This document shows, piece by piece, positions 6,087-32,000 of a DNA stretch of 32,000 nucleotides. The notes under the pieces were generated by a model. It was given only the letters and a program-made list of their open reading frames with translations, was not told where the DNA came from and made no database searches. Source of the stretch: Halorubrum sp. HHNYT27 (GTDB lineage Archaea; Halobacteriota; Halobacteria; Halobacteriales; Haloferacaceae); the NCBI RefSeq assembly GCF_051194135.1, contig NZ_JBLZNH010000004.1, positions 54,183 through 86,182 of the forward strand, given 5' to 3'. Every line of letters starts with the position of its first letter. Position 1 is the stretch's first letter. The translations under genes were made by a program, and so were the position numbers.

Positions 6087-6109
6087 CCGCTCTAGCTGAC
6101 GGGTTGAGG

Positions 6110-7675: not shown

Positions 7676-7771
7676 CAGTCTCGACACCGCCGACGTACCA
7701 AGACGAGTCTCTCTATTGAAACCGTCGTGACCGATAGTAAGTATTCTACAGATGAGTGAATACCCTCTCGC

Positions 7772-8380: not shown

Positions 8381-8388
8381 AAGAGTAG

Positions 8389-9267: not shown

Positions 9268-9294
9268 TTGACGTTGGCCAAGAGGCTATTTCGC

Positions 9295-10164: not shown

Positions 10165-10346
10165 ATGCTCGTCAAATATCAACCTTTCCTTAATTTACTT
10201 ACTACATCATCGAAACAGAATACCTTCGGAAAGTAGCACACGACCTATTCTTGGCAGCATCCCTCATCCTGATCACATTGATAATAAGATGGAATAATAT
10301 GAATATCATAGCTATGTGATAACTGGAGTTCAGTTGATGGTAGAAA

Positions 10347-16438: not shown

Positions 16439-19381
16439 TCAGGTAGCGTCATCGCCGAAGAGGTCATCAAACTCTGGTGGGTCACCAGTGGGCTGGTCGT
16501 GTGTCGTTTCCTCGTGATTGAACGAATCCGGGCCCGCCGTCTGGCCGAGATAGACCGTTTCCTCGTCAGTTCTGGTCGTCATGTGGCCACGCTCGTTGAT
16601 ATGGATCGTCCCACCGCTTTTCAGTCGATAGACGATCTGAGCGGCCTCTTTGACTTCCTCGTTGGTGATGAACGATCGGCTTGATCCGGTGCGTTCGAAC
16701 GGACGTCCCTCGGCGTCAACACTGATCTTGTAGCCGTGGGTCGGTCCCTCATACGGCTCACCCGGCTCGAGATCGGTTACGTCTGGGAACGATGGCTCGG
16801 TGTATTCTTGAACGTCTGGTCGATGGCCGTCGACGAGTTCGCCCTCTAACACCGACTCCTCAACTTCCCAGTGGAGGTGCTCAACGTCTGCGTTGCCGAG
16901 TTGCTCTTCCCAGTCGTATTCGCGGAAGATGTTCTCATCAACAGTGTCGCGCGCATACAAGACGTACAGTTCCGACTGCCGATCCGGGTTATCCCCAGTT
17001 CGGAGGATCCGCCCAAGCGTCTGGATACGTTGGCGAACGCTGCCGCTCGAAACCCGAATAATACCGGTGTCGGCATCTGGCACGTCAACACCCTCGATCA
17101 GGGCTTTGACACTGAGCATGACGTTCGCGTGGTCGTCGGCGCGGAACCACTCCATCGCGAACTCGTTCCATATCTCACGCCGATGTCCTGAATGATACAT
17201 AACTGGCCAGTAATCCGGGCGGGCAAATAGCTCCTCAACCGCTTGGTCGACTTCCTCAAGCTCTGGGAACTCATCGTAAAGCTGGGAACGGTAGCCACTC
17301 GCGCTTTCGGCTGAAATTTCGCCCTCTCGCGTTTGCCCGAGTCGTTCCCAGGGGGCAATCAGCTGTTTCAACTGCTCAATCCGTTCTTGAAACACGATCG
17401 CCTTCTCATCAGTGTCGATCCCCTCTAACAGTCGGAGCGTGATCGCCTGCCGTGCGACCGCATTCTGAACGAGGTAACGACGCCGCTGAGTAAGCGTGAA
17501 GAACTGCCCCACCGACGGGTGAGGCGACTCATCGGAGTTCAGAATCGTATTCAGCTTTTGATGGAGATTGCCATTCAACTGATACAGTCGATTAGCGTAC
17601 CGCGTCCGGATCTCTTTGAGTGCATCTGTGATCTCCCGGCTGAGGCTTTCGTACTTTTGTCGCTCGGCTGGCGCGAGATCGAACCCGACGTAGTTAATTT
17701 TGAAGCTCGGAATCAACTCCTGTTCGATCGCTTCGCTGTAGGTGAGCGTGTAGAACGGTTTCCCGAGGTAGGTGAATAACTGCTCTTCAGTCTCGGTGAG
17801 ATCACGCTCACTCTGTGGTTTTTCTGTCGGTGTCGCAGATAGACCAAGCGTTGCAGTGTTGTGATACCCAAGGACATTCGAGTGGACATCACCGGTATAG
17901 TTGTGACACTCGTCGGCGACGAGCAGATGGGGTGGGAACCCGATGTCATCGAGACAGGTAGCTAGGTAGTCGTCTTTGACAGCCGTGTTAACAATGGTAA
18001 CTAAAATCCTGATCTCATCACCGTCGAACGAATCGCGGTGGCCGTCGCCTGCCCAGCCCAGATCCTCAAGCGGAACGTTGAGCTTTTGAGTCAGTTCGGT
18101 GAGCCACTGATACATCAACACCTTCGTCGGAACAACAATGGTGACAACGCCGTCATCAGTTTCATCGAGCCATCGCCGGATGACTTCAAGGGCCATAACT
18201 GTCTTTCCAGCGCCAGTTACGACCTCTGCAATCCCTTCCTGGGGGTCGGTTTGGGCGGTTCCCGTGAACCAGGTGTTGGCCGCGTCTGCTTGCCAATCGT
18301 ACAGCGTGAAATCGTCCTGGAACGTGTAGGATTTGTTCCCAACGAACTCGGAGAGATCAGCCCGTGTGAGACCACTTCCACATTTAATGAGTTCGCGACG
18401 GGCCTCATCAGGGGACTCCGTACCCTGGATCCGCTGGAGATCATCGACAGAAAGATTTCTGAGTCGGGCGGTCTCGATCCCGAAGTCCGCGTTAATCTGA
18501 GTGCGTAGCTGTTTCCGCTTATTTTTCACTTCAACAAACTCGTCGTTTCGCTGCAACTCGGGATTGCGGTTCGTTGCATGACGAGCACTGGGCTTCAGAT
18601 ACGACTGCCAGAACTGTCTGTACCACTGTTTTCGTTTAGACCACCCACCTGATTCGCGGTACATGTAGTACTTCATCAGGGCTTGTTTCGCCTTCTTGGG
18701 TGGATAATCCGCTAGCACTCCCTCACGCTTGAGATAGTTCTCATATTTTCGAAACAGATCTGGGTTCCGAAGACGGGTGAGCGCCTTCTCAGCATCAACA
18801 GATACGGGAATCTGATACCCATTATCTGTCTCCTCTAAGTAGCCCATATGGCAGAGGAGTTCTGGGTATCCGCGAAGCCCCTGTTGGCTAAACTGATAGC
18901 CGTACTCAGTCTGTAAAGTAGTCTTGATGCTGCGTGAACTCGCTGGCTGGATACATTCGTAGGTGATCGCATGATACACCCGCTCAAGGGCTTCAAAGCC
19001 TTCTGGATGCTCTGCCCGGAGAACCCATCCGCGTTTGAGTGCTTTGTACACGCAGTCACTGAATTCGATTTCACCCTCGAGCCACCGTTGAGCGTCGTTC
19101 TCGACTCGGAGCCGTTTGTCACTCCCTGATCCGATCTCAGCCGATTCTCGGATGAACCCCGAGCGAATGAGATCAGTGATGATGTGACGGGTCCATGAGT
19201 CGCTCAGCGTATCCGCGTGGCGTCGTTCAATCGCAGCTTGACAGGGCTCAACGAATTCAGATTTTGTCGGTGGCTCGGACAGCTCAGCTAACGTCGAGAG
19301 GACTGTTTCGTACCGTTCTTGCTCGTTTGGTAATCCAGGAACGGGTGGAGGGAACCGTCGGATGAGCACCTCATCTGTCAT
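16439..19381 (-). CDS. brxHII: superfamily-2 DEAD/DEAH-type helicase, BrxHII-like, with a long N-terminal extension
   Basis: Motif I is VVTGAGKTVMAL, motif II is LLVADECHNY, motif III is GLSATP, and the helicase-C/motif VI region is LIEGVDVPDADTGIIRVSSGSVRQRIQTLGRILRTG. It sits directly downstream of pglZ. The first roughly 350 aa contain two winged-helix-like segments. Confidence 0.8.
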   Translation of the reverse strand: MTDEVLIRRFPPPVPGLPNEQERYETVLSTLAELSEPPTKSEFVEPCQAAIERRHADTLSDSWTRHIITDLIRSGFIRESAEIGSGSDKRLRVENDAQRWLEGEIEFSDCVYKALKRGWVLRAEHPEGFEALERVYHAITYECIQPASSRSIKTTLQTEYGYQFSQQGLRGYPELLCHMGYLEETDNGYQIPVSVDAEKALTRLRNPDLFRKYENYLKREGVLADYPPKKAKQALMKYYMYRESGGWSKRKQWYRQFWQSYLKPSARHATNRNPELQRNDEFVEVKNKRKQLRTQINADFGIETARLRNLSVDDLQRIQGTESPDEARRELIKCGSGLTRADLSEFVGNKSYTFQDDFTLYDWQADAANTWFTGTAQTDPQEGIAEVVTGAGKTVMALEVIRRWLDETDDGVVTIVVPTKVLMYQWLTELTQKLNVPLEDLGWAGDGHRDSFDGDEIRILVTIVNTAVKDDYLATCLDDIGFPPHLLVADECHNYTGDVHSNVLGYHNTATLGLSATPTEKPQSERDLTETEEQLFTYLGKPFYTLTYSEAIEQELIPSFKINYVGFDLAPAERQKYESLSREITDALKEIRTRYANRLYQLNGNLHQKLNTILNSDESPHPSVGQFFTLTQRRRYLVQNAVARQAITLRLLEGIDTDEKAIVFQERIEQLKQLIAPWERLGQTREGEISAESASGYRSQLYDEFPELEEVDQAVEELFARPDYWPVMYHSGHRREIWNEFAMEWFRADDHANVMLSVKALIEGVDVPDADTGIIRVSSGSVRQRIQTLGRILRTGDNPDRQSELYVLYARDTVDENIFREYDWEEQLGNADVEHLHWEVEESVLEGELVDGHRPDVQEYTEPSFPDVTDLEPGEPYEGPTHGYKISVDAEGRPFERTGSSRSFITNEEVKEAAQIVYRLKSGGTIHINERGHMTTRTDEETVYLGQTAGPDSFNHEETTHDQPTGDPPEFDDLFGDDAT

Positions 19382-19593: not shown

Positions 19594-21702
19594 CTACTGT
19601 GTAATCTCCAAAAATGAGAGCATACACTCCTGTGGAAGAAGCCCACCGTGGTAGTAGCGATCACCACTGTAGCCCTGCTTGCTGAAGTACTGACGCGGAT
19701 CGACGAGAAGCTGGAGGTCCGTATCTAAGTAGTTCAAGCCGGTCGTGTTCGGTGACACCTGTACACCGTTGGACAGTCCGTTCAGGTCACCGCCAGCAAC
19801 GCGCCGGTACTTGACTTCACCGCCTGGTGCATCTGACGGGACAGCTTCCGTTGTCGTCCCCTCGGGCAGGAGGACGAATCCATGGTCTGTGGTAACGTAA
19901 ATCCGATCCCAGTTTTCGTCATCCAACTTCTGCCGGATCGTCTCAGCAAGATCGGAGAGGTAATTGTCGAAATGGTGTTCCATTTCGCCGATTTCACCTT
20001 CGCCAACCTCATCGATTTCCTTATCGTAATAGGCGATTCGACTCTGCCCCCAGCCCGACTCTCGATCTTCGGGGACAGCCCAGCCTTCATCGCTGAGGAA
20101 CGCGATGCGCTGCTGTTTGTTCGATAGCGAGCGTTCACCCTGCGAGGGCGTAAGCGTCTCATTCCGCATGTCGACCGAAAATCTGAACGCCCGGCCCGGA
20201 GTGAGCGCGGCCATACCAAATTTTGTCTCAGAAGGTAACGTCGATAGCCGCGTTTCACGCGTGACATCGAACGAATCGCCGAGCGTCTCGGCGAGACGTT
20301 GGGCAAGGTCGAACCGCAAAGCGTCGATCAACAGGATTGCGACGGTCCCGGCTTTTTCAAATTCGCTTTCGTGATCGGTCCACCACTCATGAGCCGGCGC
20401 TTTGTCCGCAAGGGGATTGCCGACTTGCATGGCAGCCTCAACGTCGCTGGCTAATGTCTCCAGATATTCGCGATACCGAGTTGTCAGCATTTCCTTGCGA
20501 ACTTCTGGGAGTCGCTCCGTCGCCGGGTGGGCTGCGGGTATCTCACTTTCCGGTGTCCCAGTGAGTTGGATGTGGAGCACTTCGTTGTCGATCTGCCAAC
20601 TCCCATCTTCAACGTCAGCATAGGCCGTAAACGGGTCGTCTGTTCCCTCTTGGCTCTCCCATGCGTCGAACTGTTGTTGTAGCCGAGCCAGGTGTTCACA
20701 CTGGGCCCAGAGGTCACGCCAGCCGGTACTTTCGGGATAGACCGCTAATGCTGATTGCCGAGTCTGTGCATGGTCAATACACGTAGCCAGCTCCCCGGCC
20801 TCGAATCGGTCGATCCAGGCTTCCCAGAGCGCATCATCTAGTGCGCGATCCACTGGACACGCAGCATACTCCCAGACATCGTCGAGACGGCGAATGATGT
20901 CTGGCCAGAACTCAACGCTCAGATATTCTTCGGCCCGGGCTCTAGTTCCACCCATATTGAGTAGCGTCGTTAAGGGGCTGTGCGTGGATTCGCCGTACCC
21001 CTCGGGAAAGAGTGAGCCGTCGACACCCGTGTCGTGTAGCGATTGGGCGACTGCCCACCGACGAACCGTCTCTGTAATCTCTGCCGGGCCGGCACCGGGC
21101 GGAATCGGGATGTCGTCATCGAGCCTGTTGCGGACGTCAGCGACTGTCGCCGGATCTCGACTAATCTCCGGCCAGCCATCCCGCAGAAGGTGGTCGATCA
21201 ACTTTCCACCTCCACGCGTGATGATCTCTTCTCGGAGACTGTCGTACTGGGGAGTGCCCCGTGTTTCGAACTTCGCTTTGATTAAGTCAGCTACCCGCTC
21301 TCGAATAACGTCGTCATGGCGCTCAACGTCGAAGATATCCCAGGGGTTGACCTCATAGAGGTCGGCAGTGAGCTCTTCGATGCTACAGGCGACTTCACCA
21401 CCCGTCTCGCGAATGTCTCGAAACCAATCTCGGCCATCCTTGTCGTCAGCGATATACCATACAACCGGTCGGTCCATCTCGCGTTCTTCAGCGAGGGCGT
21501 CGGTACGCAGTCCAAGCGGGAACCCGTCCGCGGCGCGAAAGCCGATATCCATCTCCTCTGTGGCGGCTTCAACAATCTCTCGAAGATAGCCGCCGTCGTC
21601 CCACCACACGACCCGCACGGTGCTCGTGTGGCTCTCTGGGAACGCTTGTTGGAGCCGCTGTTGTGCTTCGTCAGTCAGTGATCGTTTGGGCTGCTGAATC
21701 AT
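19594..21702 (-). CDS. pglZ: PglZ (BrxZ) alkaline-phosphatase-fold protein
   Basis: PglZ hallmarks are present: VAILLIDALRFDLAQRL and IYVTTDHGFVLLPEG. The start overlaps the brxC stop by 4 nt. Confidence 0.9.
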   Translation of the reverse strand: MIQQPKRSLTDEAQQRLQQAFPESHTSTVRVVWWDDGGYLREIVEAATEEMDIGFRAADGFPLGLRTDALAEEREMDRPVVWYIADDKDGRDWFRDIRETGGEVACSIEELTADLYEVNPWDIFDVERHDDVIRERVADLIKAKFETRGTPQYDSLREEIITRGGGKLIDHLLRDGWPEISRDPATVADVRNRLDDDIPIPPGAGPAEITETVRRWAVAQSLHDTGVDGSLFPEGYGESTHSPLTTLLNMGGTRARAEEYLSVEFWPDIIRRLDDVWEYAACPVDRALDDALWEAWIDRFEAGELATCIDHAQTRQSALAVYPESTGWRDLWAQCEHLARLQQQFDAWESQEGTDDPFTAYADVEDGSWQIDNEVLHIQLTGTPESEIPAAHPATERLPEVRKEMLTTRYREYLETLASDVEAAMQVGNPLADKAPAHEWWTDHESEFEKAGTVAILLIDALRFDLAQRLAETLGDSFDVTRETRLSTLPSETKFGMAALTPGRAFRFSVDMRNETLTPSQGERSLSNKQQRIAFLSDEGWAVPEDRESGWGQSRIAYYDKEIDEVGEGEIGEMEHHFDNYLSDLAETIRQKLDDENWDRIYVTTDHGFVLLPEGTTTEAVPSDAPGGEVKYRRVAGGDLNGLSNGVQVSPNTTGLNYLDTDLQLLVDPRQYFSKQGYSGDRYYHGGLLPQECMLSFLEITQ

Positions 21703-24700
21703 TTGTCGGCCTCCGTCTCGATGACGACGATTGTTCCGTCGTCGTACTCCGATAGCTGTTGCCAGAGTTGGGTGTCTGTTTCTCCACCATCATCCTCGTC
21801 GTCACCAGCGAGAATCGCTCGTCCCTGCTCGAGAAGCTGTTTGGCGCGATCTGGTGTCGGAATCGTCGCGCCGGACACAGCCTTGGCGATTTGCTGGGCG
21901 ACGAATCCATCAGGGCTGGCGGGCAGCTCAGTATTGACGGCCTCGAGCTGGGTATGTAGTGAGTCACCGTCGTCCGGTGTCTCGAGGAGTGTGCGTCCAT
22001 TCGCAAGGGTTTCGATGTTATTCCGCAACGCTGAATTGGCAAACGCCTCTTCCGAGAGTGGCTCGTCTGCGTTGTTCGCGTCATCGATTGCCTCTTGAAG
22101 CGCCTCCAGGTTCACCTGTGGATACGTCTCGGTGACCTGTTCGATATCTGCGGCAAGATCTCGACTCACGAGTCTGTCGGTGAGTTCCGCCCGGAGGGCG
22201 TCGATATCGTCGGTCGTCATCGACTGCCCTGCGATCTGTTGATACAGCTCTTGTAGCGTCTCAACCCGGAATTGGCTCGCTTCGTGAAGTTGCGATTCCA
22301 GTATATCGACGCTCGGGATCTTTGAGCCGTTGGTGGCCGTGCTCAGCTGTCCCGTGACCGTCGCCTTGGGATAGTATTCTGTGAGCCAATCTGAAACAGC
22401 GGTAACCTGGTCCCACAGCGGCTCATCCTCATCACTCTCTGTGAGGAACAACGGTGCAACCTTCGCAAACCGTTCGGCCTGTTCGACGACGCTCTCATTC
22501 GTCAGAAGATCAGCATCCAGTTCACCGCCGGAGAACGCTGGGCTGAGGGCATCGTCCAGATCCCCCAGCGTGAGGCGAGTATCGAACTCGAGATTCGTTC
22601 GCGAGACGACCGTGTTGAACGCCTCCGTATGCTGGGTCGCCCACTTGTTGAGCCCGTCGAGCAGCTCGTGAGGATCATCAGTTTCCGGTTCCTCGCCAAC
22701 GAGCGCCGCATAGACGTCAGTGAGGTCCTCCGGTGGGGGCGAGGGGTCGAACACGACGATCGCGTCGGTGAACTTCGTTGTGCTGGTGATCGTACGAGCG
22801 ATCGTCCGGGTATCAGTCACCCGGTCTCCATCGACTCGGAGGGCGATCCGGTTTGCAGCCACAAGAACGAACAGGAGCGTCTGTAGCGCCTCAGTCGGAG
22901 TCCCGAGGAACGCTCCTCCACGAGCGTTGATCGTCTCCAGCACCCGCTCTCCACTGACTCGCTTATCATTATCGAATCGGTCTAGATCGAGGAACTCTTC
23001 GGCCCAACCGTTACTGATCGTCCGTGGCACACGATTTACACCCAGTCGATCGGCGTCCGTTGTGCTCAGAGGCCAGGCTCCGTTGTCTTGGAAGAAGTCG
23101 ATAAGCTCCTGGAGATCCTCCATCTGGAGGGTGTGGTCGATGTTCTTTCGGTTAGGGAACTTCTCATTGACGGCAGTCGTGACCACACTATCGAGATCTT
23201 CGAGGTAGCTTCCGTAGGCTGTCGCCCGCTGCGGCAGGTACACCGCCGCCTCATTAAGACGAGTCCGGAGTTCGTCTTCGACGTCCTCCTGCATCGATTG
23301 GCGTTGGAGCCGGTAATCCGGATCCGGGTCGGCCATCCCCTTCAACACGAGCTGCATGCCGATGAGTTCCCGAACTTGCCGTCGGATTGTCTCTGTGAGC
23401 TCGGCGGTGACTAGCACGTCTTCACGGCCGGTAGGTCCGCTGTGAGCTTCCTGCCACTGCTTGCGCTGGGTGCTGATCGTTGCTTCGTCGTGGACCAACA
23501 GCCGGATAACAATCGTATCGTACTCCTCCGTGACAGAGTCTGGGATCGACCGGTCAATCGAGTACCGAACGGTGTAGCTGATCCCATCGAGCTCGCCAAA
23601 GGCCCCCGTTTGAGTCCCCTCATGAGCCGGTAATCGCGTTGGATCGGCTTCCTGAATGAACTGCTGGATGTTGTTCTGGACTTGGTGTTCAGGAAGCTCG
23701 GTGGCCTCCTGCTGGACTTCCTGCCAGAACTGGATGTCTTCCTCAGAGAGAATGGTATACGTCGGCTCTGCAGTGTCCGTACTCTTTCGGATCAGATTGC
23801 GCTGAGCCATCGCTTCCAGCTGGGTTCGGACCTCTTCAGTCAGTTCATCGACGTCTGTTCCGACATCACGCACCAGCAGGCGAGCCATATTTTCGGCAGT
23901 CCGTGGGACGGTCTCCACCTGGCTGAGCAGAAAGAGCGCTTTGGCCGTTCTGGTTGTTGTTTCGTTTTCGAGCGTGTTCTCCACCCGAGTGATCAGTCCC
24001 GTTGCCCAGCTCGAGATGAGTTCCGTATCGGCGTCGATGATGTCGAAGATCGTGTCCCAGGCGACGACAACACCGGGCTGGCGAGCCGCCCAGCCATGCG
24101 TCACGAACAGCGACCGAACGCGTGCCAGCAGTGCTCGGCCCTGGATGTACTCCCGGTCAGTATCTCGATCTCCCTCGATCAGCCCCTGCATCGATTCACG
24201 GAGGAGCCACAGGTCCAGATCGCGGAACGGGTACGCTTCGACTGGGTTGTTGTGGTCCGGTGGGTTGGCATCTTCAGTAAGTGTCGGTGCTAACTCCGGA
24301 GCGTCGGTGAGGAGTTCTGATTCGATGTAGTCCGCGCCCGTCCCTGATTTCTGGAGCCAGCGCTTTCGAACGATGGTTTCGGTGTCGGCGCCTTCCAGTT
24401 TAATCTCCTGTGCGTACCAGGCTTCCTCATCGACGTCACCGATGAAGTTCTGCTGCATGTCCCGCATCGGCCATTGACCGGTGCCCAAGATCGGCGGATT
24501 AAGGCCATCGATGAGGGCGGTCACCGTTTCAATTACCTCTTCGTACCGCCGCTGCTGATCACCGACGTAGATCGCGATTTCGTCAAGCCCGATCAGGTAT
24601 TGATAGGTGTCGCCGTCCTGCTCGAGATGGCGTTTTGTCCGATGAAGTCGCTCGACGAGGTCGTCCGGACTGAAGGATGCGGGATCGATCGCTTCCTCAG

Positions 24701-25388
24701 CAGCGTCAATTTGGGCGTCGACGGCTGCAGCAGAGTCCAGTCCGGCTGCGGCAGCCCCATCGAGCTGGGGAATCGCCGCTTGGAGCCACGGGCGAAGGGA
24801 GGCAGGACGGTCGACGACATCCGCTAGCTGCAGATCTTTGTGCTCGATGGTCGTGAGTGGCTCCCAGAGGTCGTGTTCGATATCGAGCCGCCAGCAGAAC
24901 TCGAGCAGCCAAGGGAGTTCAGTATGGTAGCCTCGGCGGCGCCCGAGCTCTTCATACAAGATTAATGGAAGCTTCGTATCGTCCCGATCGCGGTCAAGGA
25001 GATTCAAGAACAGCGGCTGGAGGTGGTCGATGTTGCCATCAGCGATCGCATCCCGGAACTGTTTGAACCCTGTCGTGGTGTTTGCGAGATCGTGAGCATA
25101 TGACTCCAACCCCTCCATCTCGCCCGTCGCGACGCCGATGAGCTTCAGTAGATGGGACTTCCCCGACCCGAAGGTCGCGTGGACGTACCGGAAGCGGTGA
25201 TCGACATCGGTGTTAGCAACAATTGCGGCTGTTTCTCGGAGCACACGCCTTGCGCTCGCGGTTTCGTAGAACTCGTCGATGTCGCGCTCGATCTGGTCGG
25301 TCCGGTCCACCTTCTGGATCGGTTCGAGCTCACGAGTCGGTTGGCGATCCGCCGGGAACAAATCGGAGAGTGTGTTAAATTCAGACAT
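21699..25388 (-). CDS. brxC: BrxC/PglY-family P-loop ATPase (copy 2, 1229 aa)
   Basis: Walker A is HATFGSGKSHLL (GSGKSH at nt 25152-25169) and Walker B-like is YLIGLDEIAIYVGD. Its size of about 1200 aa and its position between brxB and pglZ fit the family. Confidence 0.85.
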   Translation of the reverse strand: MSEFNTLSDLFPADRQPTRELEPIQKVDRTDQIERDIDEFYETASARRVLRETAAIVANTDVDHRFRYVHATFGSGKSHLLKLIGVATGEMEGLESYAHDLANTTTGFKQFRDAIADGNIDHLQPLFLNLLDRDRDDTKLPLILYEELGRRRGYHTELPWLLEFCWRLDIEHDLWEPLTTIEHKDLQLADVVDRPASLRPWLQAAIPQLDGAAAAGLDSAAAVDAQIDAAEEAIDPASFSPDDLVERLHRTKRHLEQDGDTYQYLIGLDEIAIYVGDQQRRYEEVIETVTALIDGLNPPILGTGQWPMRDMQQNFIGDVDEEAWYAQEIKLEGADTETIVRKRWLQKSGTGADYIESELLTDAPELAPTLTEDANPPDHNNPVEAYPFRDLDLWLLRESMQGLIEGDRDTDREYIQGRALLARVRSLFVTHGWAARQPGVVVAWDTIFDIIDADTELISSWATGLITRVENTLENETTTRTAKALFLLSQVETVPRTAENMARLLVRDVGTDVDELTEEVRTQLEAMAQRNLIRKSTDTAEPTYTILSEEDIQFWQEVQQEATELPEHQVQNNIQQFIQEADPTRLPAHEGTQTGAFGELDGISYTVRYSIDRSIPDSVTEEYDTIVIRLLVHDEATISTQRKQWQEAHSGPTGREDVLVTAELTETIRRQVRELIGMQLVLKGMADPDPDYRLQRQSMQEDVEDELRTRLNEAAVYLPQRATAYGSYLEDLDSVVTTAVNEKFPNRKNIDHTLQMEDLQELIDFFQDNGAWPLSTTDADRLGVNRVPRTISNGWAEEFLDLDRFDNDKRVSGERVLETINARGGAFLGTPTEALQTLLFVLVAANRIALRVDGDRVTDTRTIARTITSTTKFTDAIVVFDPSPPPEDLTDVYAALVGEEPETDDPHELLDGLNKWATQHTEAFNTVVSRTNLEFDTRLTLGDLDDALSPAFSGGELDADLLTNESVVEQAERFAKVAPLFLTESDEDEPLWDQVTAVSDWLTEYYPKATVTGQLSTATNGSKIPSVDILESQLHEASQFRVETLQELYQQIAGQSMTTDDIDALRAELTDRLVSRDLAADIEQVTETYPQVNLEALQEAIDDANNADEPLSEEAFANSALRNNIETLANGRTLLETPDDGDSLHTQLEAVNTELPASPDGFVAQQIAKAVSGATIPTPDRAKQLLEQGRAILAGDDEDDGGETDTQLWQQLSEYDDGTIVVIETEADK

Positions 25389-26019
25389 CGGTCATGTACC
25401 CCTCAGTCACTTTGTTGCCGATCCGATGGGCCGGGTAGTAGTGGCGCGCACGTTCGTTGAAGAAGCTCAGCCGACCGCCCACAACGGATCCCGGGAACGG
25501 GATCCCGACGGTTGTATTGACGTTTTTGCGGTCGAGTTCGTCGAGTAACTCGGATGCTCTGGTAAACGGATACAGGCTCCCGAGACCGAGGAGGACCAGC
25601 ACCGACGAGCGATCGTTGGTGACACTGCCACCAGAGATATGTTCGCTAATGAGCGTCTCAACGAGTTCTGAGGCAAGGTTTCGCTCCAAGGTATCTTCGA
25701 CAGCCGCCGTTTCAACCCGTTCTAGTGGTCCCAGATCGATACTGGTCTCGAAGGCTGTCGTCTGGGGCAAGAGTGCATCCAGACGGACACTTGTAATTCT
25801 CACCGCGGTGCCACTGGTGTCGGTAACGTCCTCCCAATCGGCGAGTCGCCCCTCAGGTGCGCTTGCCCATGCCTCAAGTCGATTCGTCACCCGGTGTTCG
25901 ATCCGTGGCTCGACGGGCACCATCACGAAGGGGTTCCGAATCCCGCGGCGCTCGCCGCGGGCGAAATCAACCAACTCGTCGGTGAATGCGACAAGCGGGT
26001 TCTTTGTTGTCTCACTCAT
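25381..26019 (-). CDS. brxB: BrxB (DUF1788-like) protein
   Basis: 212 aa. The typical C-terminal pattern is present: VLVLLGLGSLYPFTRASELLDELD...VGIPFPGSVVGGRLSFFNERARHYYPAHRI. It is translationally coupled to both flanking brxC genes. Confidence 0.8.
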   Translation of the reverse strand: MSETTKNPLVAFTDELVDFARGERRGIRNPFVMVPVEPRIEHRVTNRLEAWASAPEGRLADWEDVTDTSGTAVRITSVRLDALLPQTTAFETSIDLGPLERVETAAVEDTLERNLASELVETLISEHISGGSVTNDRSSVLVLLGLGSLYPFTRASELLDELDRKNVNTTVGIPFPGSVVGGRLSFFNERARHYYPAHRIGNKVTEGYMTDV

Positions 26020-29000
26020 CGGACGATCACCCCGCCGTCAACATCGACGAGATCAAGATCTATCCCGCTGTCTTCGAGCGACTCGATTTGGGCTCGGAGC
26101 GTCTCCGCATCCGCATGCAACAGGCCGACTCTGTTCACCTCACGCGGCGTCTTGCCATCGAGCAGTCGATCGATCGTCGCGAGCTGCTCTCGACGCTGGG
26201 CGACCGTTTCTTCTGAAAGCGCGTCCCAGTCGAGTCGCCCGTTGAGCCGCCCCAATATCGTCGTCAACACGCTTGAATCGGCGGCTCCTGGCTCGGGGTC
26301 GGTTAGACCTTCCAGTGCTGTCGTACTGTGCTCAACGGTGTTCCGGAAGGTTCGGAGGGGGTTGAGGTATGTGGTCATGAATCCGTCCTGGACCATGGTG
26401 AGCTCCGTTGGCTCGATCAGCCATGGATGGTCCTCCAACTCTGCCAGAAGCGACTCGACTGCTGTGGTGGCCTGTTGCTCGGCCCATGCCTCCTCGAGTG
26501 CGTCAATAGCTGGCTGGCGCGCATCGAGTTCGTCGACAAATTCGGGCCATCCGTCATCTGTCCACCAGTCCATCTCGGTGGCACCTTCGACTTGGTCAGT
26601 CAGGGTTTGTAGTTGGTCGCGGACATCGTCGCCGAACCATCCGACTTCGCTCAGTTCAGATCGGGTGAGGCCTTCCAGCTGGAGGAGGAAGGGAAGGCGC
26701 TCGTCCCACTGTGTCTCGGCCATCGTCAGGATGGTCGCTTCCGTCTCCGTCGCTTCGATCATCTCTCGTAAGTCCTTGGTGTCGGACGTCGTGGCTCGAT
26801 TTTGTCGTTCTGCGGTTGCGTCCGCGATGGCTTCGGCCTGCGTTGCGAGCCGCCGGACAAGCGTCTCTACCGCCGTCTCAAATGTGGTGTCCGCTTTGAC
26901 TCCAGCATTACTTGCAAGAGCGTTTGCCCGAGTCTCGACATCTCCGAGCCAGTCCGCGAAGTTGATGTACCCCTGATTTTCGCTTTCAGTTGGCTCGATG
27001 AGATCGTGCTCAACGAAGACGTCTTTTGCTCGCTTCCCTGGCGGAACTGTCGCAAGGGTGAGGTCAGTGTGCCGACGCGGGCTGAGTAAGGCGTCGAGCT
27101 CGACTGGGTCCTCATCGACTGTCGTGACTCTGAACACGCCAGCCCGGCAGAGGCCCCAGAGGACAGCGAGCAGGGCGGGCGACGGATCCTGTCCGGAATC
27201 GGTGGCAACACTGAATAGCGGCTCCTCATCGATGGCCCGGTCTAGAATGGTGGCGACGTCTACCCCCGCTTCGCTGTTCTCGATTTGGGTCCCAACCAAC
27301 CGACGGACCTCGAGTGCAATATCACTGTACGTCGCGTAATTCCCCGTTTTATCTGCAGGCACACCAATCGTCTCGGCCCAACTCGGGAGGGCATCGTCAT
27401 CGTCGTCAAGCTGGCGCAGCTCGTCTAAGTGCGAGTCTGAGATCCGGGCAAGCAACGGGTGGAAGTAGTCCGGGTATGTCTCGGTGATATACTCCGTTAA
27501 GGCGTTCGGGAACGTCGCAAACTCATCGGCTTGGACAGTATACGTCCCGTTTGACAGCGCAGATCGGAGTTTATCAGCGACGCGATTGGCGGCATCATTC
27601 CGATCACGGACGACAGATTCTGGCGGGTTCGTCCGTCGAGTTGCCTTCTCGAGGGCCCACCATTCGGTCAGTTGCGTCCGGAGCTCGTCAAGTCCCTCGG
27701 TCTCCAACATCCAGTAGAGCTTATCCCGTGCAATCCGGTCAGTATCCACGTCCGGTCGCAGCCCCCGGACAACCACATCGACGTCAAAGACGGTGTTCTC
27801 CTCTTCGGAATATCCGGTCTCCAGGTGTGTCCCGTCGATGTGGAACGAATAGCCGGCCGGGTAAGCAGTGGTCTCACCGTCGTCGGTTCCCCAGTCGTAG
27901 CTCCCTGGCAGGTCTAACTCAGCGATAATGTCGCTCCAGAGCTGCTGGTCGAGCGTCTCGATAATCTCATCCCAGTCAGGATCGGTTTCGAACTCGCGGG
28001 CGTTAGAGATGAGTCGCTGTTCCTCTCGATCGGTCAGTCGCAGGTCGGCTCCGTCCGTGCTGGTGTCGGGGCGGATGTACTTTTCGAGGTTCCCTTCCAG
28101 AGAGTTCCGCACCTGTGTTTGGACGTTAGATCGGATCTCTCCCTCGAGGTCATCCATAACCGCCGTCGCGAGGTTGGAATCACTCTGTGGAACCATCTCA
28201 GGGACGTAGGACAGCAGCAGGACCGCTTTGGCGACTTTCACGTCAAAGGCCGTCGTTTCGGGATCCGTCTTGATGTCCTCGATGACATCCGTTTTGTCCG
28301 GGATGATGTCTTCAAGCTCGTACTGGACTAGATCGTAGAAATCGACGAGGCTGATGATCGGCTTTTCGCCATCTTTCTCAGCCCATTCGGCGCGGAGGCC
28401 GGCAACAATCGACAGAACCGCTCGTGCCGTTCCGGAGAAAATTGATTTTGTCGCGTCCGACAGTTGGTTCCGCAGGTTCGAGAGGATCTCCATGAACAGC
28501 GCCGGTTGGTAGGGAAGCAGTGGATAGTACTGAATAAACTGCTCTTGGTCAAGCTCGTCAAGGCCCGGCGCCGTGTTCTGGGTCACCTCCCGATAGGTGA
28601 GCATAATCTCCGGGTCAACCGTCGCCGTGAGGGCGTGATTCTCGATCCACTGTCGCCCCTGATCGGATTTCGCGAGGAGGCGCTGCTGGACAATCTCTCC
28701 GACGTGGCGACTGGGGAGCTCGTACTGTTGTGGGAACCTGTCTTTGAGAATCCCGAAGTTGAGCTGTTTGACAGCGAGTCCGGGTTGGACATCTTCAATA
28801 TTCGACTGGGCCGTCACGACGGAGATGATGTTGCCCTGGCCAACGTCTTTGATACCCTCTGCGAGGGCGTTCAGTTCTGAGAGCCGCTGGTAGTTCCCCC
28901 CAATAAAGAGCGTCACCTCGTCCATCAGGAGCGCGATCTTCACTGGGCGATCGAACTGTTGTTCAAGCTCTTGGCGGTACGACTCGATCTTCTGGACGGC

Positions 29001-29765
29001 GAGTTCCTGTCCGATCTTCTTGTTTTGGATGTCGCCCAGATTATCGACCATCCCCGTGGCGCGCTCAGTCAGGTCCGGGAGGACGATATCCGAGAGGATC
29101 TGGTACTGGCGAACGTCATCCCAGGTATAGTTGGGGTTCGGGACCCCTTCGTCGACGAGAACCTCGTTCAGCAGTGTCTCGCGCTGGTCCCACACCTCAC
29201 GGGTATCGAACATGCCGCCCGCCCGATTGAACTCCTCTTCGAAGAAAGCGACATCGAGCCGGTCGGCGAAGCCGCGCTGGTTGTAGACCGCTTGGAGGAC
29301 GATCTCGCTGAAGCTCTGCTCGCGGACGCCCTGGTACTGGAGGAGGTTGATCGACAGCGGGACAACGACGGTGTCCTCGTGGAGGGCCTGCCAGGCCTCG
29401 CCCAGCTCCGACTCGGCGTCGTTGCTGTCGAACCGACCCCACACGGCCTCCGGTCCCGCAGCTTCTACCTGTTCGGTGTCGAGCAGGAGATCCAGCGCAG
29501 TCAAGAGGTGGCTCTTCCCGCTGCCGTAGTAGCCATAGAGCCAGTGGTTCCGTTCGTCGGCGTCAGGGGTCTCCTCGTGGAAGTGGCGGAATAGATCCTC
29601 GAGGAAGGTTCCGGTGGCCTCTGTCAGGTGATAATCATCGAGATAGCGACGATAGAGTTCTTCACGCCGCTCTGCCTGGTCGTCAATCTCGAAATCCCGG
29701 TCGATCCGGATCGATTCCTCGAACTGCGGGTCAGGGTCTTCGAATAGGTGGTCGTCGTCGATCAT
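26016..29765 (-). CDS. brxC: BrxC/PglY-family P-loop ATPase (copy 1, 1249 aa)
   Basis: Walker A is LYGYYGSGKSHLL (GSGKSH at nt 29508-29525) and Walker B-like is IALLMDEVTLFIGG. It is highly diverged from copy 2 outside the P-loop region. Confidence 0.85.
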   Translation of the reverse strand: MIDDDHLFEDPDPQFEESIRIDRDFEIDDQAERREELYRRYLDDYHLTEATGTFLEDLFRHFHEETPDADERNHWLYGYYGSGKSHLLTALDLLLDTEQVEAAGPEAVWGRFDSNDAESELGEAWQALHEDTVVVPLSINLLQYQGVREQSFSEIVLQAVYNQRGFADRLDVAFFEEEFNRAGGMFDTREVWDQRETLLNEVLVDEGVPNPNYTWDDVRQYQILSDIVLPDLTERATGMVDNLGDIQNKKIGQELAVQKIESYRQELEQQFDRPVKIALLMDEVTLFIGGNYQRLSELNALAEGIKDVGQGNIISVVTAQSNIEDVQPGLAVKQLNFGILKDRFPQQYELPSRHVGEIVQQRLLAKSDQGRQWIENHALTATVDPEIMLTYREVTQNTAPGLDELDQEQFIQYYPLLPYQPALFMEILSNLRNQLSDATKSIFSGTARAVLSIVAGLRAEWAEKDGEKPIISLVDFYDLVQYELEDIIPDKTDVIEDIKTDPETTAFDVKVAKAVLLLSYVPEMVPQSDSNLATAVMDDLEGEIRSNVQTQVRNSLEGNLEKYIRPDTSTDGADLRLTDREEQRLISNAREFETDPDWDEIIETLDQQLWSDIIAELDLPGSYDWGTDDGETTAYPAGYSFHIDGTHLETGYSEEENTVFDVDVVVRGLRPDVDTDRIARDKLYWMLETEGLDELRTQLTEWWALEKATRRTNPPESVVRDRNDAANRVADKLRSALSNGTYTVQADEFATFPNALTEYITETYPDYFHPLLARISDSHLDELRQLDDDDDALPSWAETIGVPADKTGNYATYSDIALEVRRLVGTQIENSEAGVDVATILDRAIDEEPLFSVATDSGQDPSPALLAVLWGLCRAGVFRVTTVDEDPVELDALLSPRRHTDLTLATVPPGKRAKDVFVEHDLIEPTESENQGYINFADWLGDVETRANALASNAGVKADTTFETAVETLVRRLATQAEAIADATAERQNRATTSDTKDLREMIEATETEATILTMAETQWDERLPFLLQLEGLTRSELSEVGWFGDDVRDQLQTLTDQVEGATEMDWWTDDGWPEFVDELDARQPAIDALEEAWAEQQATTAVESLLAELEDHPWLIEPTELTMVQDGFMTTYLNPLRTFRNTVEHSTTALEGLTDPEPGAADSSVLTTILGRLNGRLDWDALSEETVAQRREQLATIDRLLDGKTPREVNRVGLLHADAETLRAQIESLEDSGIDLDLVDVDGGVIVR

Positions 29766-30598
29766 CCTGTCTCTCCAAGTTTAGCGTAGAAATCGTCGAC
29801 TGGTTCGTACCACAGTCGCCCGTGGGACTCATGCGTGGACCAGCGGGTGGATTCCGCGAGCCGGTTGCTCTGCGGGCTCCAGAACGATTCGGGCTGGAAG
29901 AGGTACCGCCATCCGAGTGGGTTCATGAGCCACTCGTCGTCCAGCTGTTGCCAGGACCAGTATGCAGCCACTTCCAAGGGAACGTCACCGATGTTCGGGA
30001 CATCGCCGTCGGTTCCCTGTTTGGATTGAATCACGCCGATCGATCGAAGGACACCGCGGAAGTTCGTCCCCCAGCGGTCCTTGGTCGACTCTGAGAAGTC
30101 TAACGGGGAGCCGTCAGTATGCTGGAACTCATCGAGGAACTCGATAATCTGCTCGTTCGAGAAATCGAGGGCGCTGACACTCCGGCGTTGGAGTTGCTGA
30201 AGATACTCATGCAGGACGTACTGTACAACCGTGTCCTCGGCGACAAGGTAGCAGTACAGCACCTGCAGTTGGTCCCGCTCTTTGCGGCACGTATCGAGGA
30301 TATCCGGAAGATACTGGAGTGGCGGGAGCCCGCCGCCGGCCTCCTGTAGTCGGGGCTTGATCGCGTTGAACGAGCGACGAGAGCCCTCAACGGTGAGGCG
30401 CTCTGCCTCTCGTCGTTCGAGCCACTGCTCGCTTGCCGTCGTCCAGTCCCCACATTCGTTGTATAGGTCTATGATGGCACGGGTCTGTTCGAGGTCGAGG
30501 CTGGCAGCGACGAGCCCGATATGTGTCTCGTCCTGGCTGAATTGGCCATTCAGGGATCGAATTTCGTGATCGTCCCTCGCCGGCCGGCCGTTTGCCAT
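29762..30598 (-). CDS. brxA: BrxA (DUF1819-like) protein, longer than usual
   Basis: It is the first gene of the coupled operon, with a 4-nt overlap to brxC. The helical protein carries a pattern like ...LDLEQTRAIIDLY......RSFNAIKPRL. The assignment rests mainly on position and size. Confidence 0.6.
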   Translation of the reverse strand: MANGRPARDDHEIRSLNGQFSQDETHIGLVAASLDLEQTRAIIDLYNECGDWTTASEQWLERREAERLTVEGSRRSFNAIKPRLQEAGGGLPPLQYLPDILDTCRKERDQLQVLYCYLVAEDTVVQYVLHEYLQQLQRRSVSALDFSNEQIIEFLDEFQHTDGSPLDFSESTKDRWGTNFRGVLRSIGVIQSKQGTDGDVPNIGDVPLEVAAYWSWQQLDDEWLMNPLGWRYLFQPESFWSPQSNRLAESTRWSTHESHGRLWYEPVDDFYAKLGETG

Positions 30599-30722
30599 GG
30601 GCAGAGAGGAGGGAGGTCCCCACTTAGATGTTCTTGTCCTAACTCATTTTAGAAATCAGAAACTACCCGCCCTCCTGCCATGCGAAGGTTCATGTAGCCT
30701 GCGTTGAGGGTTGTATACAATT

Positions 30723-32000
30723 GTGTCTGGGTCCGATTCAACTCAGCGGAAAGCCCAACTCGACAAGGCCGAGCGCGAGCACCTCGAAGATGTCGTTACT
30801 GATCTTCGGGAGCTCGTTGAGCGTGAGATCGAGTACGAGCTCGAACATCAGTATGAGTTAACATCGAGGGAGGGTGGTGAGGGACTCTCTACAGAGGAGG
30901 AGGCAATTCGGAAGAAGTTGGTCGAGGCGATCGAGTACGAAAATCCGGGCGAGAAGTCCTGGCAGTGGGCGTACGACCAGTACGTGACCGGCGTCGGCTA
31001 CACGCTCGTGAATCGGCTCGCGGCGCTGCGATGTATGGAGGTCCGTGGCTTTCTCGACCAACCGGTGACACAGATCGGTGACTCTGGGCTGACGCCGGCT
31101 GCGGAGCAAGTTCTTGGCGAGCGGTTCGATGTCGGGCCCGACGAAGCGCTCATCGTCGCCTTCCAAGAGGCGTGTGAGCAGCTCGACGACGAAATTGAGA
31201 TCCTTTTCGATACCAACTCGCCGTACACGGTGTTGGATATCGAGCCGGATCTCTTCGAAGATGCGGTGGCGGAATTAGACGAGATTCCAGAGGCAGTGTG
31301 GCGCGCCGACGACGTCCTCGGGTGGGTGTACGAGTACTACAACCGCCCGGTCGTCGAGGCGCTCGATGCCAAAAACTCGCTCGAACCCGAGGACGTAGGG
31401 CCGGCGAATCAGTTCTACACGCCACACTGGGTCGTGCGTATGCTCGCGGACAACTCGCTGGGGAAGCTCTATCTTGAAGCGACCGATCGAGAAGACTCCA
31501 TCCCCGATCCCGAGGCGCTCTCTCCCGACGAGCGGAAGAACCGCCTCGTCACGCCGGAAGACTCTCCCAACATCCCGGAACTCTGTACCTACCTCATTCC
31601 CGATGAGGAGCCCGGTGACGCGCCGGAGTTCGACCACCCGCGCGAGCTGCGCGTCATCGATCCGGCCTGTGGCAGCGGCCACTTCCTTCTCTACGCGTTC
31701 GACATTTTAGAGCGCATCTGGTGGGCGGAGACGGAACTCGACCGCGCGGAGATTCCCGCGAAGGTCCTCGAACACAACCTCTACGGCGTCGACATCGACC
31801 TGCGCTCCTGTCAGCTCTCGGCATTCAATCTCTATTTAAAAGCCCGAACGCGGGCCGAAGCGGAAGACGGCGCGTTCGAGATGCCCAACGTCGGGATCGT
31901 CTGTGCGGACGCATCGATCGCGGAGGTGGAGGAGGCGACCGACGTGCTCGACGAGATCACCGGCGAGGGGAGCGATCTGCGGGAAGCGCTGGACGACGTG
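30723..32000 (+). CDS. pglX: PglX (BrxX) BREX adenine methyltransferase, N-terminal part (3' end outside window); start codon uncertain (GTG 30723 or TTG 30711)
   Basis: The frame is open from the TGA at 30705-30707 to the window end and is absent from the ORF track. It contains GPANQFYTPHWVVRMLADNSLGKLY and SAM motif I LRVIDPACGSGHFLLYAFD (DPACGSG at nt 31659-31679). The first in-frame ATG comes only about 100 codons in. Confidence 0.85.
   Translation, partial: MSGSDSTQRKAQLDKAEREHLEDVVTDLRELVEREIEYELEHQYELTSREGGEGLSTEEEAIRKKLVEAIEYENPGEKSWQWAYDQYVTGVGYTLVNRLAALRCMEVRGFLDQPVTQIGDSGLTPAAEQVLGERFDVGPDEALIVAFQEACEQLDDEIEILFDTNSPYTVLDIEPDLFEDAVAELDEIPEAVWRADDVLGWVYEYYNRPVVEALDAKNSLEPEDVGPANQFYTPHWVVRMLADNSLGKLYLEATDREDSIPDPEALSPDERKNRLVTPEDSPNIPELCTYLIPDEEPGDAPEFDHPRELRVIDPACGSGHFLLYAFDILERIWWAETELDRAEIPAKVLEHNLYGVDIDLRSCQLSAFNLYLKARTRAEAEDGAFEMPNVGIVCADASIAEVEEATDVLDEITGEGSDLREALDDV

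What the first reader, a model, noticed from the sequence alone, without database searches (positions are those of the whole stretch)
19594..32000. BREX type 5-like system with a non-canonical gene order: brxB sandwiched between two brxC paralogues, pglX divergent
The components match my recollection of BREX type 5 (Goldfarb et al. 2015): brxA, brxB, two brxC/pglY, pglX, pglZ, and the brxHII helicase in place of brxL. As I recall, that type is a largely haloarchaeal variant. The order here is brxA-brxC1-brxB-brxC2-pglZ, with every junction overlapping by 4-8 nt. pglX has been moved to the opposite strand upstream of brxA, rather than sitting between brxC and pglZ. The two BrxC copies share the GSGKSH P-loop but little else by eye, which implies an old duplication with subfunctionalisation. 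To my knowledge type 5 has had little experimental work, so the role of the second BrxC and the helicase is open.
Basis: partly seen in the sequence, partly recalled or inferred. Interest (0 to 1): 0.65.

Follow-up and report, generated by a model that had tools for sequence, protein, structure and literature searches.

The report
Ordinary type 5 BREX defence locus
This is an intact-looking copy of a known haloarchaeal anti-virus system (BREX type 5), and the gene order that looked unusual is the normal order for one of the two lineages of that system, so the finding is ordinary.

Summary
brxA, brxC1, brxB, brxC2 and pglZ lie on the minus strand (30598..19594) with overlaps of 4, 4, 8 and 4 nt. 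pglX starts divergently at 30723 and runs off the window. NCBIfam's type-specific PglZ and PglX models assign the locus to BREX type 5.

The order is not non-canonical. In all 65 related loci where the three genes are visible, brxB lies between the two brxC genes. Divergent pglX, with pglZ fused behind brxC2, recurs in 13 other species or plasmids. Six of the seven proteins make this a separate lineage. There, brxHII follows pglX, so here it should lie beyond base 32000.

The only helicase near the locus (19381..16439) fails the BrxHII profile. It resembles PbeA/Dnd-restriction helicases and lies outside the conserved cassette.

The two BrxC proteins are true, deeply diverged paralogues that both keep their ATPase motifs.

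A 2026 preprint already characterises a type 5 system. It reports that both BrxC are required, that brxA and brxHII are dispensable, and that the mark is m4C.

Verdict: a new member of a known kind, of low interest.

The parts
19594..21702 (-). pglZ (702 aa), last gene of the brxA-pglZ operon. The alkaline-phosphatase-type motifs IDALRFD (20308-20328) and TDHGF (19876-19890) are present.
   Evidence: NCBIfam BREX_PglZ_5 770 bits, cutoff 250. PADLOC PglZ 1.9e-162, full length. Motif positions. DNA synteny with L001, L005 and L006 stops at its stop codon.
21699..25388 (-). brxC2 (1229 aa), the second BrxC/PglY-family ATPase. Walker A GSGKSH is at 25152-25169. Walker B (GLDEIA) is at 24573-24590.
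   Evidence: PADLOC BrxC PDLC02473 1.6e-249. NCBIfam BREX_BrxC 173 bits, below the type 1 cutoff. Walker residues G74-S75-G76-K77, H79, D269 and E270 are invariant in 5 diverse orthologues.
25381..26019 (-). brxB (212 aa), lying between the two brxC genes.
   Evidence: PADLOC BrxB 2e-64. Pfam BrxB 47 bits, cutoff 26.8. It holds the same position in all 65 related loci where it is visible.
26016..29765 (-). brxC1 (1249 aa), the first BrxC/PglY-family ATPase. Walker A GSGKSH is at 29508-29525. Walker B (LLMDEV) is at 28914-28931.
   Evidence: PADLOC BrxC PDLC02474 5.5e-279, full length. NCBIfam BREX_BrxC 221 bits. G81-H86, D282 and E283 are invariant in 5 orthologues.
29762..30598 (-). brxA (278 aa), first gene of the minus-strand operon.
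   Evidence: PADLOC BrxA 1.3e-76. The Pfam BrxA hit is weak at 19.5 bits, below the cutoff of 23.
30599..30722 (.). 124-nt divergent intergenic region. It has two blocks conserved across the divergent lineage: CACTTAGATGTTCTTGT (30621-30637, 23-39 nt from the brxA ATG) and GAAGGTTCATGTAG (30684-30697, 26-39 nt from the pglX GTG). These are inferred promoter elements for two leaderless transcripts.
   Evidence: Alignment of 7 loci and coordinates. The promoter role is inferred from position only.
30723..32000 (+). pglX, first 426 of about 1400 codons, cut by the window end. SAM-binding motif I DPACGSG is at 31659-31679. Motif IV (NPPY in all relatives, near residue 515) lies beyond the window.
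   Evidence: PADLOC PglX PDLC02518 4e-215, aligned 1-426 to 1-427 of 1412. NCBIfam BREX_5_MTaseX 776 bits on 30% of the length. It is 91% identical to the Halorubrum salsamenti PglX N-terminus. Motifs in relatives.

Best explanation
The region is the visible 12.4 kb of a BREX type 5 (type V) anti-virus cassette of about 19-20 kb. It belongs to one of two deep lineages of that type.

In this lineage the genes form two divergent operons. One is brxA-brxC1-brxB-brxC2-pglZ, whose genes overlap by 4-8 nt, as expected if they are translationally coupled. The other is pglX followed, in every relative that can be read, by brxHII. That gene should therefore lie just past base 32000.

Likely mechanism, by homology with the characterised Haloarcula hispanica type V and E. 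coli type 1 systems:
- PglX, together with BrxB, both BrxC ATPases and PglZ, methylates one strand of a short non-palindromic motif on host DNA.
- Incoming viral DNA that lacks the mark is recognised through PglX, and its replication is blocked.
- BrxA and BrxHII are accessory or regulatory.

Shown here: gene identities, type assignment, intact catalytic motifs, lineage membership and conserved synteny.

Inferred: the presence of brxHII, the promoters, the methylated base and motif, and defence activity.
For: - Type assignment: BREX_PglZ_5 at 770 bits (cutoff 250) and BREX_5_MTaseX as top hit. Full-length PADLOC hits for all six gene products.
- Same architecture at 74-77% DNA identity over 19603-31997 in Haloplanus rubicundus pCBA1112-01, Halorubrum salsamenti and Haloarchaeobius sp..
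- Survey of 72 related loci plus the window: 14 divergent (including the window), 42 colinear, 17 undetermined.
- brxHII follows pglX in 11 of 11 divergent loci with sequence available.
- NJ trees of BrxA, BrxC1, BrxB, BrxC2, PglZ and BrxHII each separate the two architectures as monophyletic groups.
- Walker A and B motifs are invariant in both BrxC families. PglZ and PglX motifs are present.
- Function of a type V system comes from bioRxiv 10.64898/2026.04.28.721311. Both brxC genes, brxB, pglX and pglZ are required for defence. Methylation was lost on disruption of either brxC or of the cognate methyltransferase. brxA and brxHII are dispensable.
Against: - pglX is truncated by the window, and brxHII cannot be seen.
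- The source contig could not be recovered.
- There is no functional or methylome evidence for this locus.
- The characterised Haloarcula system is of the colinear layout. In the sampled loci, core proteins of colinear and divergent systems are only 32-55% identical (mean 36-49% per protein), so extrapolating requirements and the m4C chemistry is an inference.
- All type 5 PglX relatives carry NPPY. From my own knowledge, that motif is more often associated with N6-adenine methylation, so the modified base is uncertain.
Confidence: 0.88

Rival explanations
1. The locus would be a non-canonical, rearranged type 5-like system whose unusual order (brxB between two brxC genes, pglX inverted) marks a new variant with possibly different function.
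For: The layout differs from the colinear order brxA-brxC1-brxB-brxC2-(insert)-pglX-pglZ-brxHII. That order is found in 42 loci and is the one described for Haloarcula hispanica. The divergent group is a distinct clade for six of the seven proteins.
Against: - brxB between the two brxC genes is universal, seen in 65 of 65 loci.
- The divergent layout recurs in 13 other loci from at least 9 genera. These include RefSeq plasmids whose pglX and pglZ carry BREX-5 names.
- The gene content is the same in both layouts.
Confidence: 0.08
2. The 980-aa helicase directly downstream of pglZ (16439-19381, minus strand) would be this system's brxHII-equivalent, occupying the place of brxL.
For: It lies on the same strand, 212 nt after pglZ. 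It has ResIII, DEAD and Helicase_C domains, the domain types that I recall the original classification using to define brxHII.
Against: - It gives no hit to the BrxHII profile PDLC02504, whereas true BrxHII scores above 1500 bits.
- It is only 23% identical to Haloplanus BrxHII, and only over the generic SF2 core.
- Its best hits are PbeA (1.6e-47) and TIGR04095 dnd_restrict_1.
- Conserved synteny with three close relatives ends at the pglZ stop codon.
- No related BREX locus has it.
- Its full-length homologues sit elsewhere on plasmids, with other partner genes.
Confidence: 0.04
3. The locus is an incomplete or decaying BREX-5 system, with pglX disrupted or brxHII lost beyond the window, as reported for both Halobacterium salinarum systems.
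For: - Disrupted type 5 systems exist. brxHII is transposon-hit in strain R1, and pglX is disrupted with no helicase found in strain 91-R6 (PMC7002104).
- Degraded copies are seen in L053 and L007.
- The window ends inside pglX.
Against: - All five complete genes are full length against their profiles (PADLOC profile coverage).
- The 4-8 nt start/stop overlaps are intact and the catalytic motifs are present.
- The 426 visible pglX codons are uninterrupted and 91% identical to an intact relative.
Confidence: 0.1

Closest known systems
Type V (type 5) BREX of Haloarcula hispanica ATCC 33960 (Gordeeva et al. 2026, bioRxiv 10.64898/2026.04.28.721311; type defined by Goldfarb et al. 2015)
   Same: The same gene families are present: BrxA, BrxB, two deeply diverged BrxC paralogues, PglX and PglZ. 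Relatives of the window locus also have BrxHII. PglZ passes, and the PglX fragment best matches, NCBIfam's BREX-5 models.
   Different: - That locus is colinear. It has nucS inserted after brxC2, two pglX copies, and brxHII as the last gene.
- The window has a single visible pglX, transcribed divergently from brxA, and pglZ fused behind brxC2.
- Core proteins of the two layouts are only about 36-49% identical on average.
Haloplanus rubicundus CBA1112 plasmid pCBA1112-01 BREX-5 locus (NZ_CP031147.1, 94332-112567)
   Same: Its architecture is identical: pglZ<brxC2<brxB<brxC1<brxA | pglX>brxHII>. It is 74% identical in DNA across 19603-31996 and 73-81% identical in protein. The brxA-pglX spacer is 124 nt in both.
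   Different: - The genes downstream of pglZ differ. There they are type II R-M genes. Here they are a PbeA-like helicase and a methyltransferase.
- The window stops before the rest of pglX and brxHII.
Type 1 BREX (E. coli HS, Bacillus cereus; brxA-brxB-brxC-pglX-pglZ-brxL)
   Same: The core families BrxA, BrxB, BrxC, PglX and PglZ are shared, as is the presumed logic of methylation-based self-marking. BrxC1 and BrxC2 both hit the type 1 BrxC model, at 221 and 173 bits.
   Different: - Type 1 has one BrxC rather than two, and brxB precedes brxC.
- BrxL is replaced by the SNF2-like BrxHII.
- m6A is reported for type 1 (PMC9240713), whereas m4C is reported for type V.
The 'distant' BREX of Halobacterium salinarum 91-R6 (Pfeiffer et al. 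2019, PMC7002104)
   Same: It belongs to the same divergent lineage (L012: pglX< brxA> C1> B> C2> pglZ>).
   Different: That copy has a disrupted pglX and no helicase was identified. The window's visible genes are all intact.

Membership tests
BREX type 5 (type V) | PglZ of the type 5 subfamily | tested here: met
   NCBIfam NF033444 BREX_PglZ_5 scores 770.1 bits against a curated cutoff of 250, aligned 8-701 to 2-704 of 704. The next best model, BREX_PglZ_1_B, scores 110 bits.
BREX type 5 (type V) | PglX methyltransferase of the type 5 subfamily | tested here: met
   Only 426 of about 1400 residues are in the window. NF033454 BREX_5_MTaseX scores 775.7 bits on model positions 3-421 of 1404. 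The full-length cutoff of 900 cannot be reached by a fragment. The next best model, BREX_1_MTaseX, scores 237 bits. PADLOC PDLC02518 gives 4e-215. Motif IV is outside the window.
BREX type 5 (type V) | Two BrxC/PglY paralogues | tested here: met
   Each hits a distinct full-length PADLOC BrxC model, PDLC02474 and PDLC02473. They are homologous by hhalign at 99.6% probability over 775 columns. Both have Walker A and B motifs.
BREX type 5 (type V) | BrxA and BrxB present | tested here: met
   PADLOC BrxA 1.3e-76 and BrxB 2e-64. Pfam BrxB is above its cutoff and Pfam BrxA is below its cutoff.
BREX type 5 (type V) | BrxHII helicase in place of BrxL | not testable with these tools
   By synteny it should follow pglX at about 34.9-37.9 kb, beyond the window. 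It is present there in 11 of 11 divergent-lineage loci with sequence available. The source contig was not found. None of the ten large window ORFs scanned hits a BrxL model. No BrxHII homologue is found anywhere in the window.
BrxHII (PADLOC PDLC02504), tested for the 980-aa helicase at 16439-19381 | Match to the BrxHII profile, or orthology to BrxHII of related loci | tested here: not met
   There is no BrxHII hit at E <= 0.01. The best hits are PbeA at 1.6e-47 and TIGR04095 at 110 bits, below its cutoff of 600. Identity to Haloplanus BrxHII is 23% over the SF2 core only. The gene lies outside the conserved cassette.
Divergent-operon lineage of BREX type 5 | pglX divergent from brxA; pglZ directly after brxC2; core proteins clustering with that lineage | tested here: met
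   The layout is shown. BrxC1 is 48-79% identical to the divergent loci (L067 and the degraded L053 are scored on partial segments) and at most 41% identical to all others. The window falls inside the monophyletic divergent clade in the BrxA, BrxC1, BrxB, BrxC2 and PglZ NJ trees.
BREX (any type) | Methylation-dependent exclusion of viruses | not testable with these tools
   This needs a methylome and virus challenge of the host. It is known for a colinear type V system only.

The most novel reading that the evidence does not exclude
The divergent lineage may be a functionally distinct subtype of type 5. In it, the specificity module (pglX with brxHII) is a separately transcribed, separately exchangeable unit, driven from a conserved bidirectional promoter region opposite the brxA-pglZ core. 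This would explain why pglX phylogeny is uncoupled from the other six genes. It could also allow independent regulation of modification and exclusion. In this particular locus, the PbeA-like helicase and methyltransferase inserted right after pglZ could additionally cooperate with BREX.
Probability: 0.15. Interest if true: 0.4.

Novelty: new member of a known kind. Interest (0 to 1): 0.2.

Why it matters
Mainly as a correction. The features flagged as odd are the rule for BREX type 5, so this locus does not open a new question.

The comparative by-products are modestly useful to people working on BREX:
- Type 5 splits into two deep lineages with different operon layouts.
- pglX moves between the lineages, while the other six genes co-diverge.
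- BrxHII is the most conserved protein, although it was dispensable in the one system tested.
- An uncatalogued nuclease-helicase pair often sits next to type 5 loci.

A host carrying this locus could serve to test whether the requirements found in Haloarcula hold in the second lineage.

Tried and rejected
- Recovering the source contig to see the rest of pglX and brxHII failed. Exact-protein look-ups for BrxA and BrxC1 found nothing. An exact 51-nt scan of metagenome contigs found nothing. A protein search with the PglX fragment returned only relatives at 86% identity or less, and at most 73% over the whole fragment. The nearest species-level genomes are 76-77% identical in DNA.
- Goldfarb et al. 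2015 is not in the paper library. The 'canonical' order was therefore established empirically from 72 loci rather than from the paper's figure.
- No tRNA gene marks an integration site.
- I considered the 980-aa helicase plus the adjacent beta-class methyltransferase as a type III-like R-M pair, or as part of a Pbe/Dnd-type system. No dnd or pbe partner genes are in the window. The conserved partner genes of its plasmid homologues are also absent. Its role is left unresolved.
- I considered that the PglX tree incongruence might come only from the variable target-recognition region. It holds for the N-terminal, middle and C-terminal thirds taken separately. These are NJ trees without bootstrap support.
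Full report
**What is in the sequence**

The minus strand of 19594-30598 carries five ORFs in a row. They are brxA (29762-30598, 278 aa), brxC1 (26016-29765, 1249 aa), brxB (25381-26019, 212 aa), brxC2 (21699-25388, 1229 aa) and pglZ (19594-21702, 702 aa). Successive genes overlap by 4, 4, 8 and 4 nt.

An open frame begins on the plus strand at GTG 30723, 124 nt from the brxA start. It runs uninterrupted to the window end, giving 426 codons.

PADLOC profiles identify the products as follows:
- BrxA, E = 1.3e-76.
- BrxC, model PDLC02474, E = 5.5e-279.
- BrxB, E = 2e-64.
- BrxC, model PDLC02473, E = 1.6e-249.
- PglZ, E = 1.9e-162.
- PglX, model PDLC02518, E = 4e-215, aligned to model positions 1-427 of 1412.

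The many other long ORFs listed in this G+C-rich region overlap these genes, mostly on the opposite strand. I take them to be spurious.

**Typing**

NCBIfam has type-specific models. BREX_PglZ_5 scores 770 bits against a curated cutoff of 250, and the next PglZ model scores 110 bits. BREX_5_MTaseX scores 776 bits on the 30% of PglX that is visible, against 237 bits for the type 1 model. The refutation condition 'profile typing assigns the locus to another BREX type' is therefore not met. The locus is type 5.

**The two BrxC proteins**

- BLASTP between them finds only the P-loop.
- Profile-profile comparison of five-sequence alignments gives 99.6% probability and E = 6.8e-24 over 775 aligned columns at 22% identity.
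- Both hit the type 1 BrxC model NF033441, at 221 and 173 bits.
- Walker A and Walker B residues are invariant in both families.
- In all-against-all BLASTP, BrxC1 versus BrxC2 scores 39-76 bits. BrxC1 versus type 1 BrxC scores 73-124 bits. BrxC2 versus a haloarchaeal type 1 BrxC scores 82-98 bits.

The split between the two is thus at least as deep as their split from type 1 BrxC. Neither belongs to 'a different ATPase family'.

**Is the order unusual?**

I collected related loci in two ways. The first was tblastn of BrxC1 against plasmids (annotated regions). The second was a scan of one genome per species with a BrxC1 alignment, which returned 68 loci. I annotated the loci by BLASTP of their ORFs against reference proteins.

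brxB lies between brxC1 and brxC2 in every one of the 65 loci where the three genes are visible. That feature is simply what type 5 looks like.

Two layouts exist.
- The colinear layout is brxA>brxC1>brxB>brxC2>(a spacer of 75 nt to 4.8 kb that in most loci carries variable inserted genes)>pglX>pglZ>brxHII. It is found in 42 loci. These include Natrinema sp. J7-2 and Halobacterium salinarum R1. By its published description, Haloarcula hispanica also has this layout.
- The divergent layout is brxHII<pglX< | >brxA>brxC1>brxB>brxC2>pglZ. It is found in the window and 13 other loci: Haloplanus rubicundus, Haladaptatus, Halorubrum salsamenti, Hrr. trapanicum, Haloarchaeobius, Natronococcus (rearranged), Halonotius, Halogranum, Halorarius, Halobacterium salinarum DSM 3754 and others.

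Seventeen loci were too short to classify. The divergent layout therefore accounts for roughly a quarter of classifiable loci. In the two plasmid records I inspected, its pglX and pglZ are already annotated with BREX-5 names. The second refutation condition, that the same order proves to be a common arrangement already present in databases, is met.

**The divergent layout is a lineage**

BrxC1 identity to the window is 48-79% for the divergent loci and at most 41% for all others. L067 and the degraded copy L053 were scored on partial segments.

I compared 9 divergent and 7 colinear complete loci.
- NJ trees of BrxA, BrxC1, BrxB, BrxC2, PglZ and BrxHII each separate the two groups as monophyletic clades.
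- Mean between-group identity is 36-49% for the five core proteins and 67% for BrxHII.
- PglX does not separate the groups, with identities of 53% and 58% within the two groups and 52% between them. This holds for each third of the protein.

This points to exchange of the methyltransferase between lineages. The trees are simple NJ trees without support values, so the exchange is a lead rather than a demonstrated result.

**Limits of the cassette, and brxHII**

DNA similarity to the three closest loci (74-77%) runs without a break from 19603 to the window end. It stops at the pglZ stop codon.

In all 11 divergent loci with sequence available, pglX is followed by a gene of about 967 codons, directly in most. 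The two copies scanned score 1552-1588 bits on the PADLOC BrxHII model. By synteny, brxHII should therefore lie at about 34.9-37.9 kb, outside the window. I could not recover the source contig.

The helicase that is visible lies at 16439-19381 on the minus strand, 212 nt after pglZ.
- It does not hit BrxHII.
- Its best matches are PbeA (1.6e-47) and TIGR04095 'dnd_restrict_1', the latter below cutoff.
- It shares only 23% identity with BrxHII, and only over the generic SF2 core.
- It is absent from all related BREX loci.
- Its full-length homologues on five haloarchaeal plasmids lie elsewhere. In the three loci inspected they sit beside conserved hypothetical genes that the window lacks.

It is a neighbour in a defence island, not part of the BREX cassette.

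**Regulatory region**

The 124-nt spacer between brxA and pglX has the same length in Haloplanus and Haloarchaeobius. Two blocks are conserved across seven divergent-lineage loci: CACTTAGATGTTCTTGT (30621-30637) and GAAGGTTCATGTAG (30684-30697). Each lies about 23-39 nt from the adjacent start codon. I infer that they are promoter elements for two leaderless transcripts. This was not tested.

**How it most likely works**

The preprint on the Haloarcula hispanica type V system reports the following.
- Host DNA is marked at non-palindromic motifs.
- The system reduces plaquing of unmodified virus by about 10- to 100-fold for three of seven viruses tested, without killing the host.
- brxB, brxC1, brxC2, the pglX genes and pglZ are each required for defence. 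brxA and brxHII are not.
- Both BrxC ATPases are needed for methylation.
- The mark is N4-methylcytosine.

Applied to this locus, PglX would act with BrxB, BrxC1, BrxC2 and PglZ to methylate host DNA and to recognise unmarked incoming DNA. BrxA and BrxHII would modulate the response.

The gene identities and intact motifs are shown here. Everything functional is inferred across 32-55% identity in the core proteins.

All type 5 PglX relatives carry NPPY as motif IV, and in this locus that motif lies beyond the window. The modified base here is therefore not predictable.

**Comparison and novelty**

The locus is a member of BREX type 5, in the divergent-operon lineage. Its closest annotated relative is on Haloplanus rubicundus plasmid pCBA1112-01. 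It is new only as a sequence, at no more than 79% BrxC1 identity to any species representative.

The divergent layout does not seem to have been singled out in the papers I could read. Pfeiffer et al. noted a 'distantly related' BREX in Halobacterium salinarum 91-R6 without commenting on its layout. It is nevertheless a rearrangement of the same parts and is common in public genomes.

**Verdict**

It is wrong on the order being non-canonical, and it is out of date on the state of experimental work. Interest is low.

Noticed in passing
window 16439-19381 (-) and 14664-16271 (-): A 980-aa SF2 helicase (PADLOC PbeA 1.6e-47; TIGR04095 dnd_restrict_1 below cutoff) is followed, after 167 nt, by a 535-aa beta-class N6_N4 DNA methyltransferase. 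The three plasmid homologues of the helicase that I inspected are preceded by conserved hypothetical genes (245-375 aa). Those genes are absent here, and no dnd or pbe genes are in the window. The pairing with a methyltransferase appears specific to this locus, and its function is unresolved.
   Followed up: partly
L004 3208-10018, L082 12103-18922, L081 37815-43264, L083 38239-43645 and 16 further loci: A PD-(D/E)XK nuclease (about 860-1100 aa) plus UvrD-type helicase pair flanks type 5 BREX in 20 of the roughly 85 loci held. It often lies about 200 nt upstream of brxA and divergent from it, or directly after brxHII. The nuclease has no PADLOC hit, and the helicase has only generic GajB/UvrD hits. 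It is a possible uncatalogued companion module of BREX-5. It is not present in the window.
   Followed up: partly
L048, L056, L057 (Salinivenus/Salinibacter), L066 (Nanohaloarchaea MAG), L067 ('Nealsonbacteria' MAG): Type 5 BREX cores with the brxC1-brxB-brxC2 order occur in hypersaline Bacteroidota-type bacteria and in a nanohaloarchaeal MAG. The papers read describe type 5 as exclusive to Halobacteria. The Nealsonbacteria contig looks like misbinned haloarchaeal DNA.
   Followed up: no
L001-L085, per-protein comparisons: BrxHII is the most conserved type 5 protein, at 67% identity between lineages against 36-49% for the core proteins. It was nevertheless dispensable in Haloarcula hispanica. 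PglX phylogeny mixes the two lineages in all three thirds of the protein, which suggests exchange of the methyltransferase gene.
   Followed up: partly
window 10378-12864 (+) and 12776-14218 (+): An 828-aa protein has an EVE domain plus an AAA_5 (McrB-like) ATPase. It overlaps a 480-aa partner that has no family hit. This is probably a modification-dependent McrBC-type restriction pair. Two related BREX-5 loci carry homologues of the pair or of its ATPase (L001, L034), and L082 carries an annotated AAA ATPase plus McrC-family pair.
   Followed up: partly
window 1-10200: G+C content falls from 0.64-0.73 (1-7000) to 0.50-0.62 (7000-32000). The left part carries a universal stress protein (2511-2945), a tyrosine integrase (3314-4552, +), a PadR-type regulator (5351-5980, -), a GIY-YIG protein (8389-9267, +) and an HNH endonuclease (9295-10182, -). 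No tRNA gene is present. This looks like the edge of a horizontally acquired defence island.
   Followed up: partly
colinear type 5 loci, between brxC2 and pglX (e.g. L023 18092-22506, L079 8974-16236): The brxC2-pglX junction of the colinear lineage is a hot spot for insertions of 0.1-4.8 kb. The inserted genes include transposases, regulators, a nucleotidyltransferase and, in Haloarcula hispanica, nucS. In the divergent lineage this junction is replaced by a tight brxC2-pglZ fusion.
   Followed up: no
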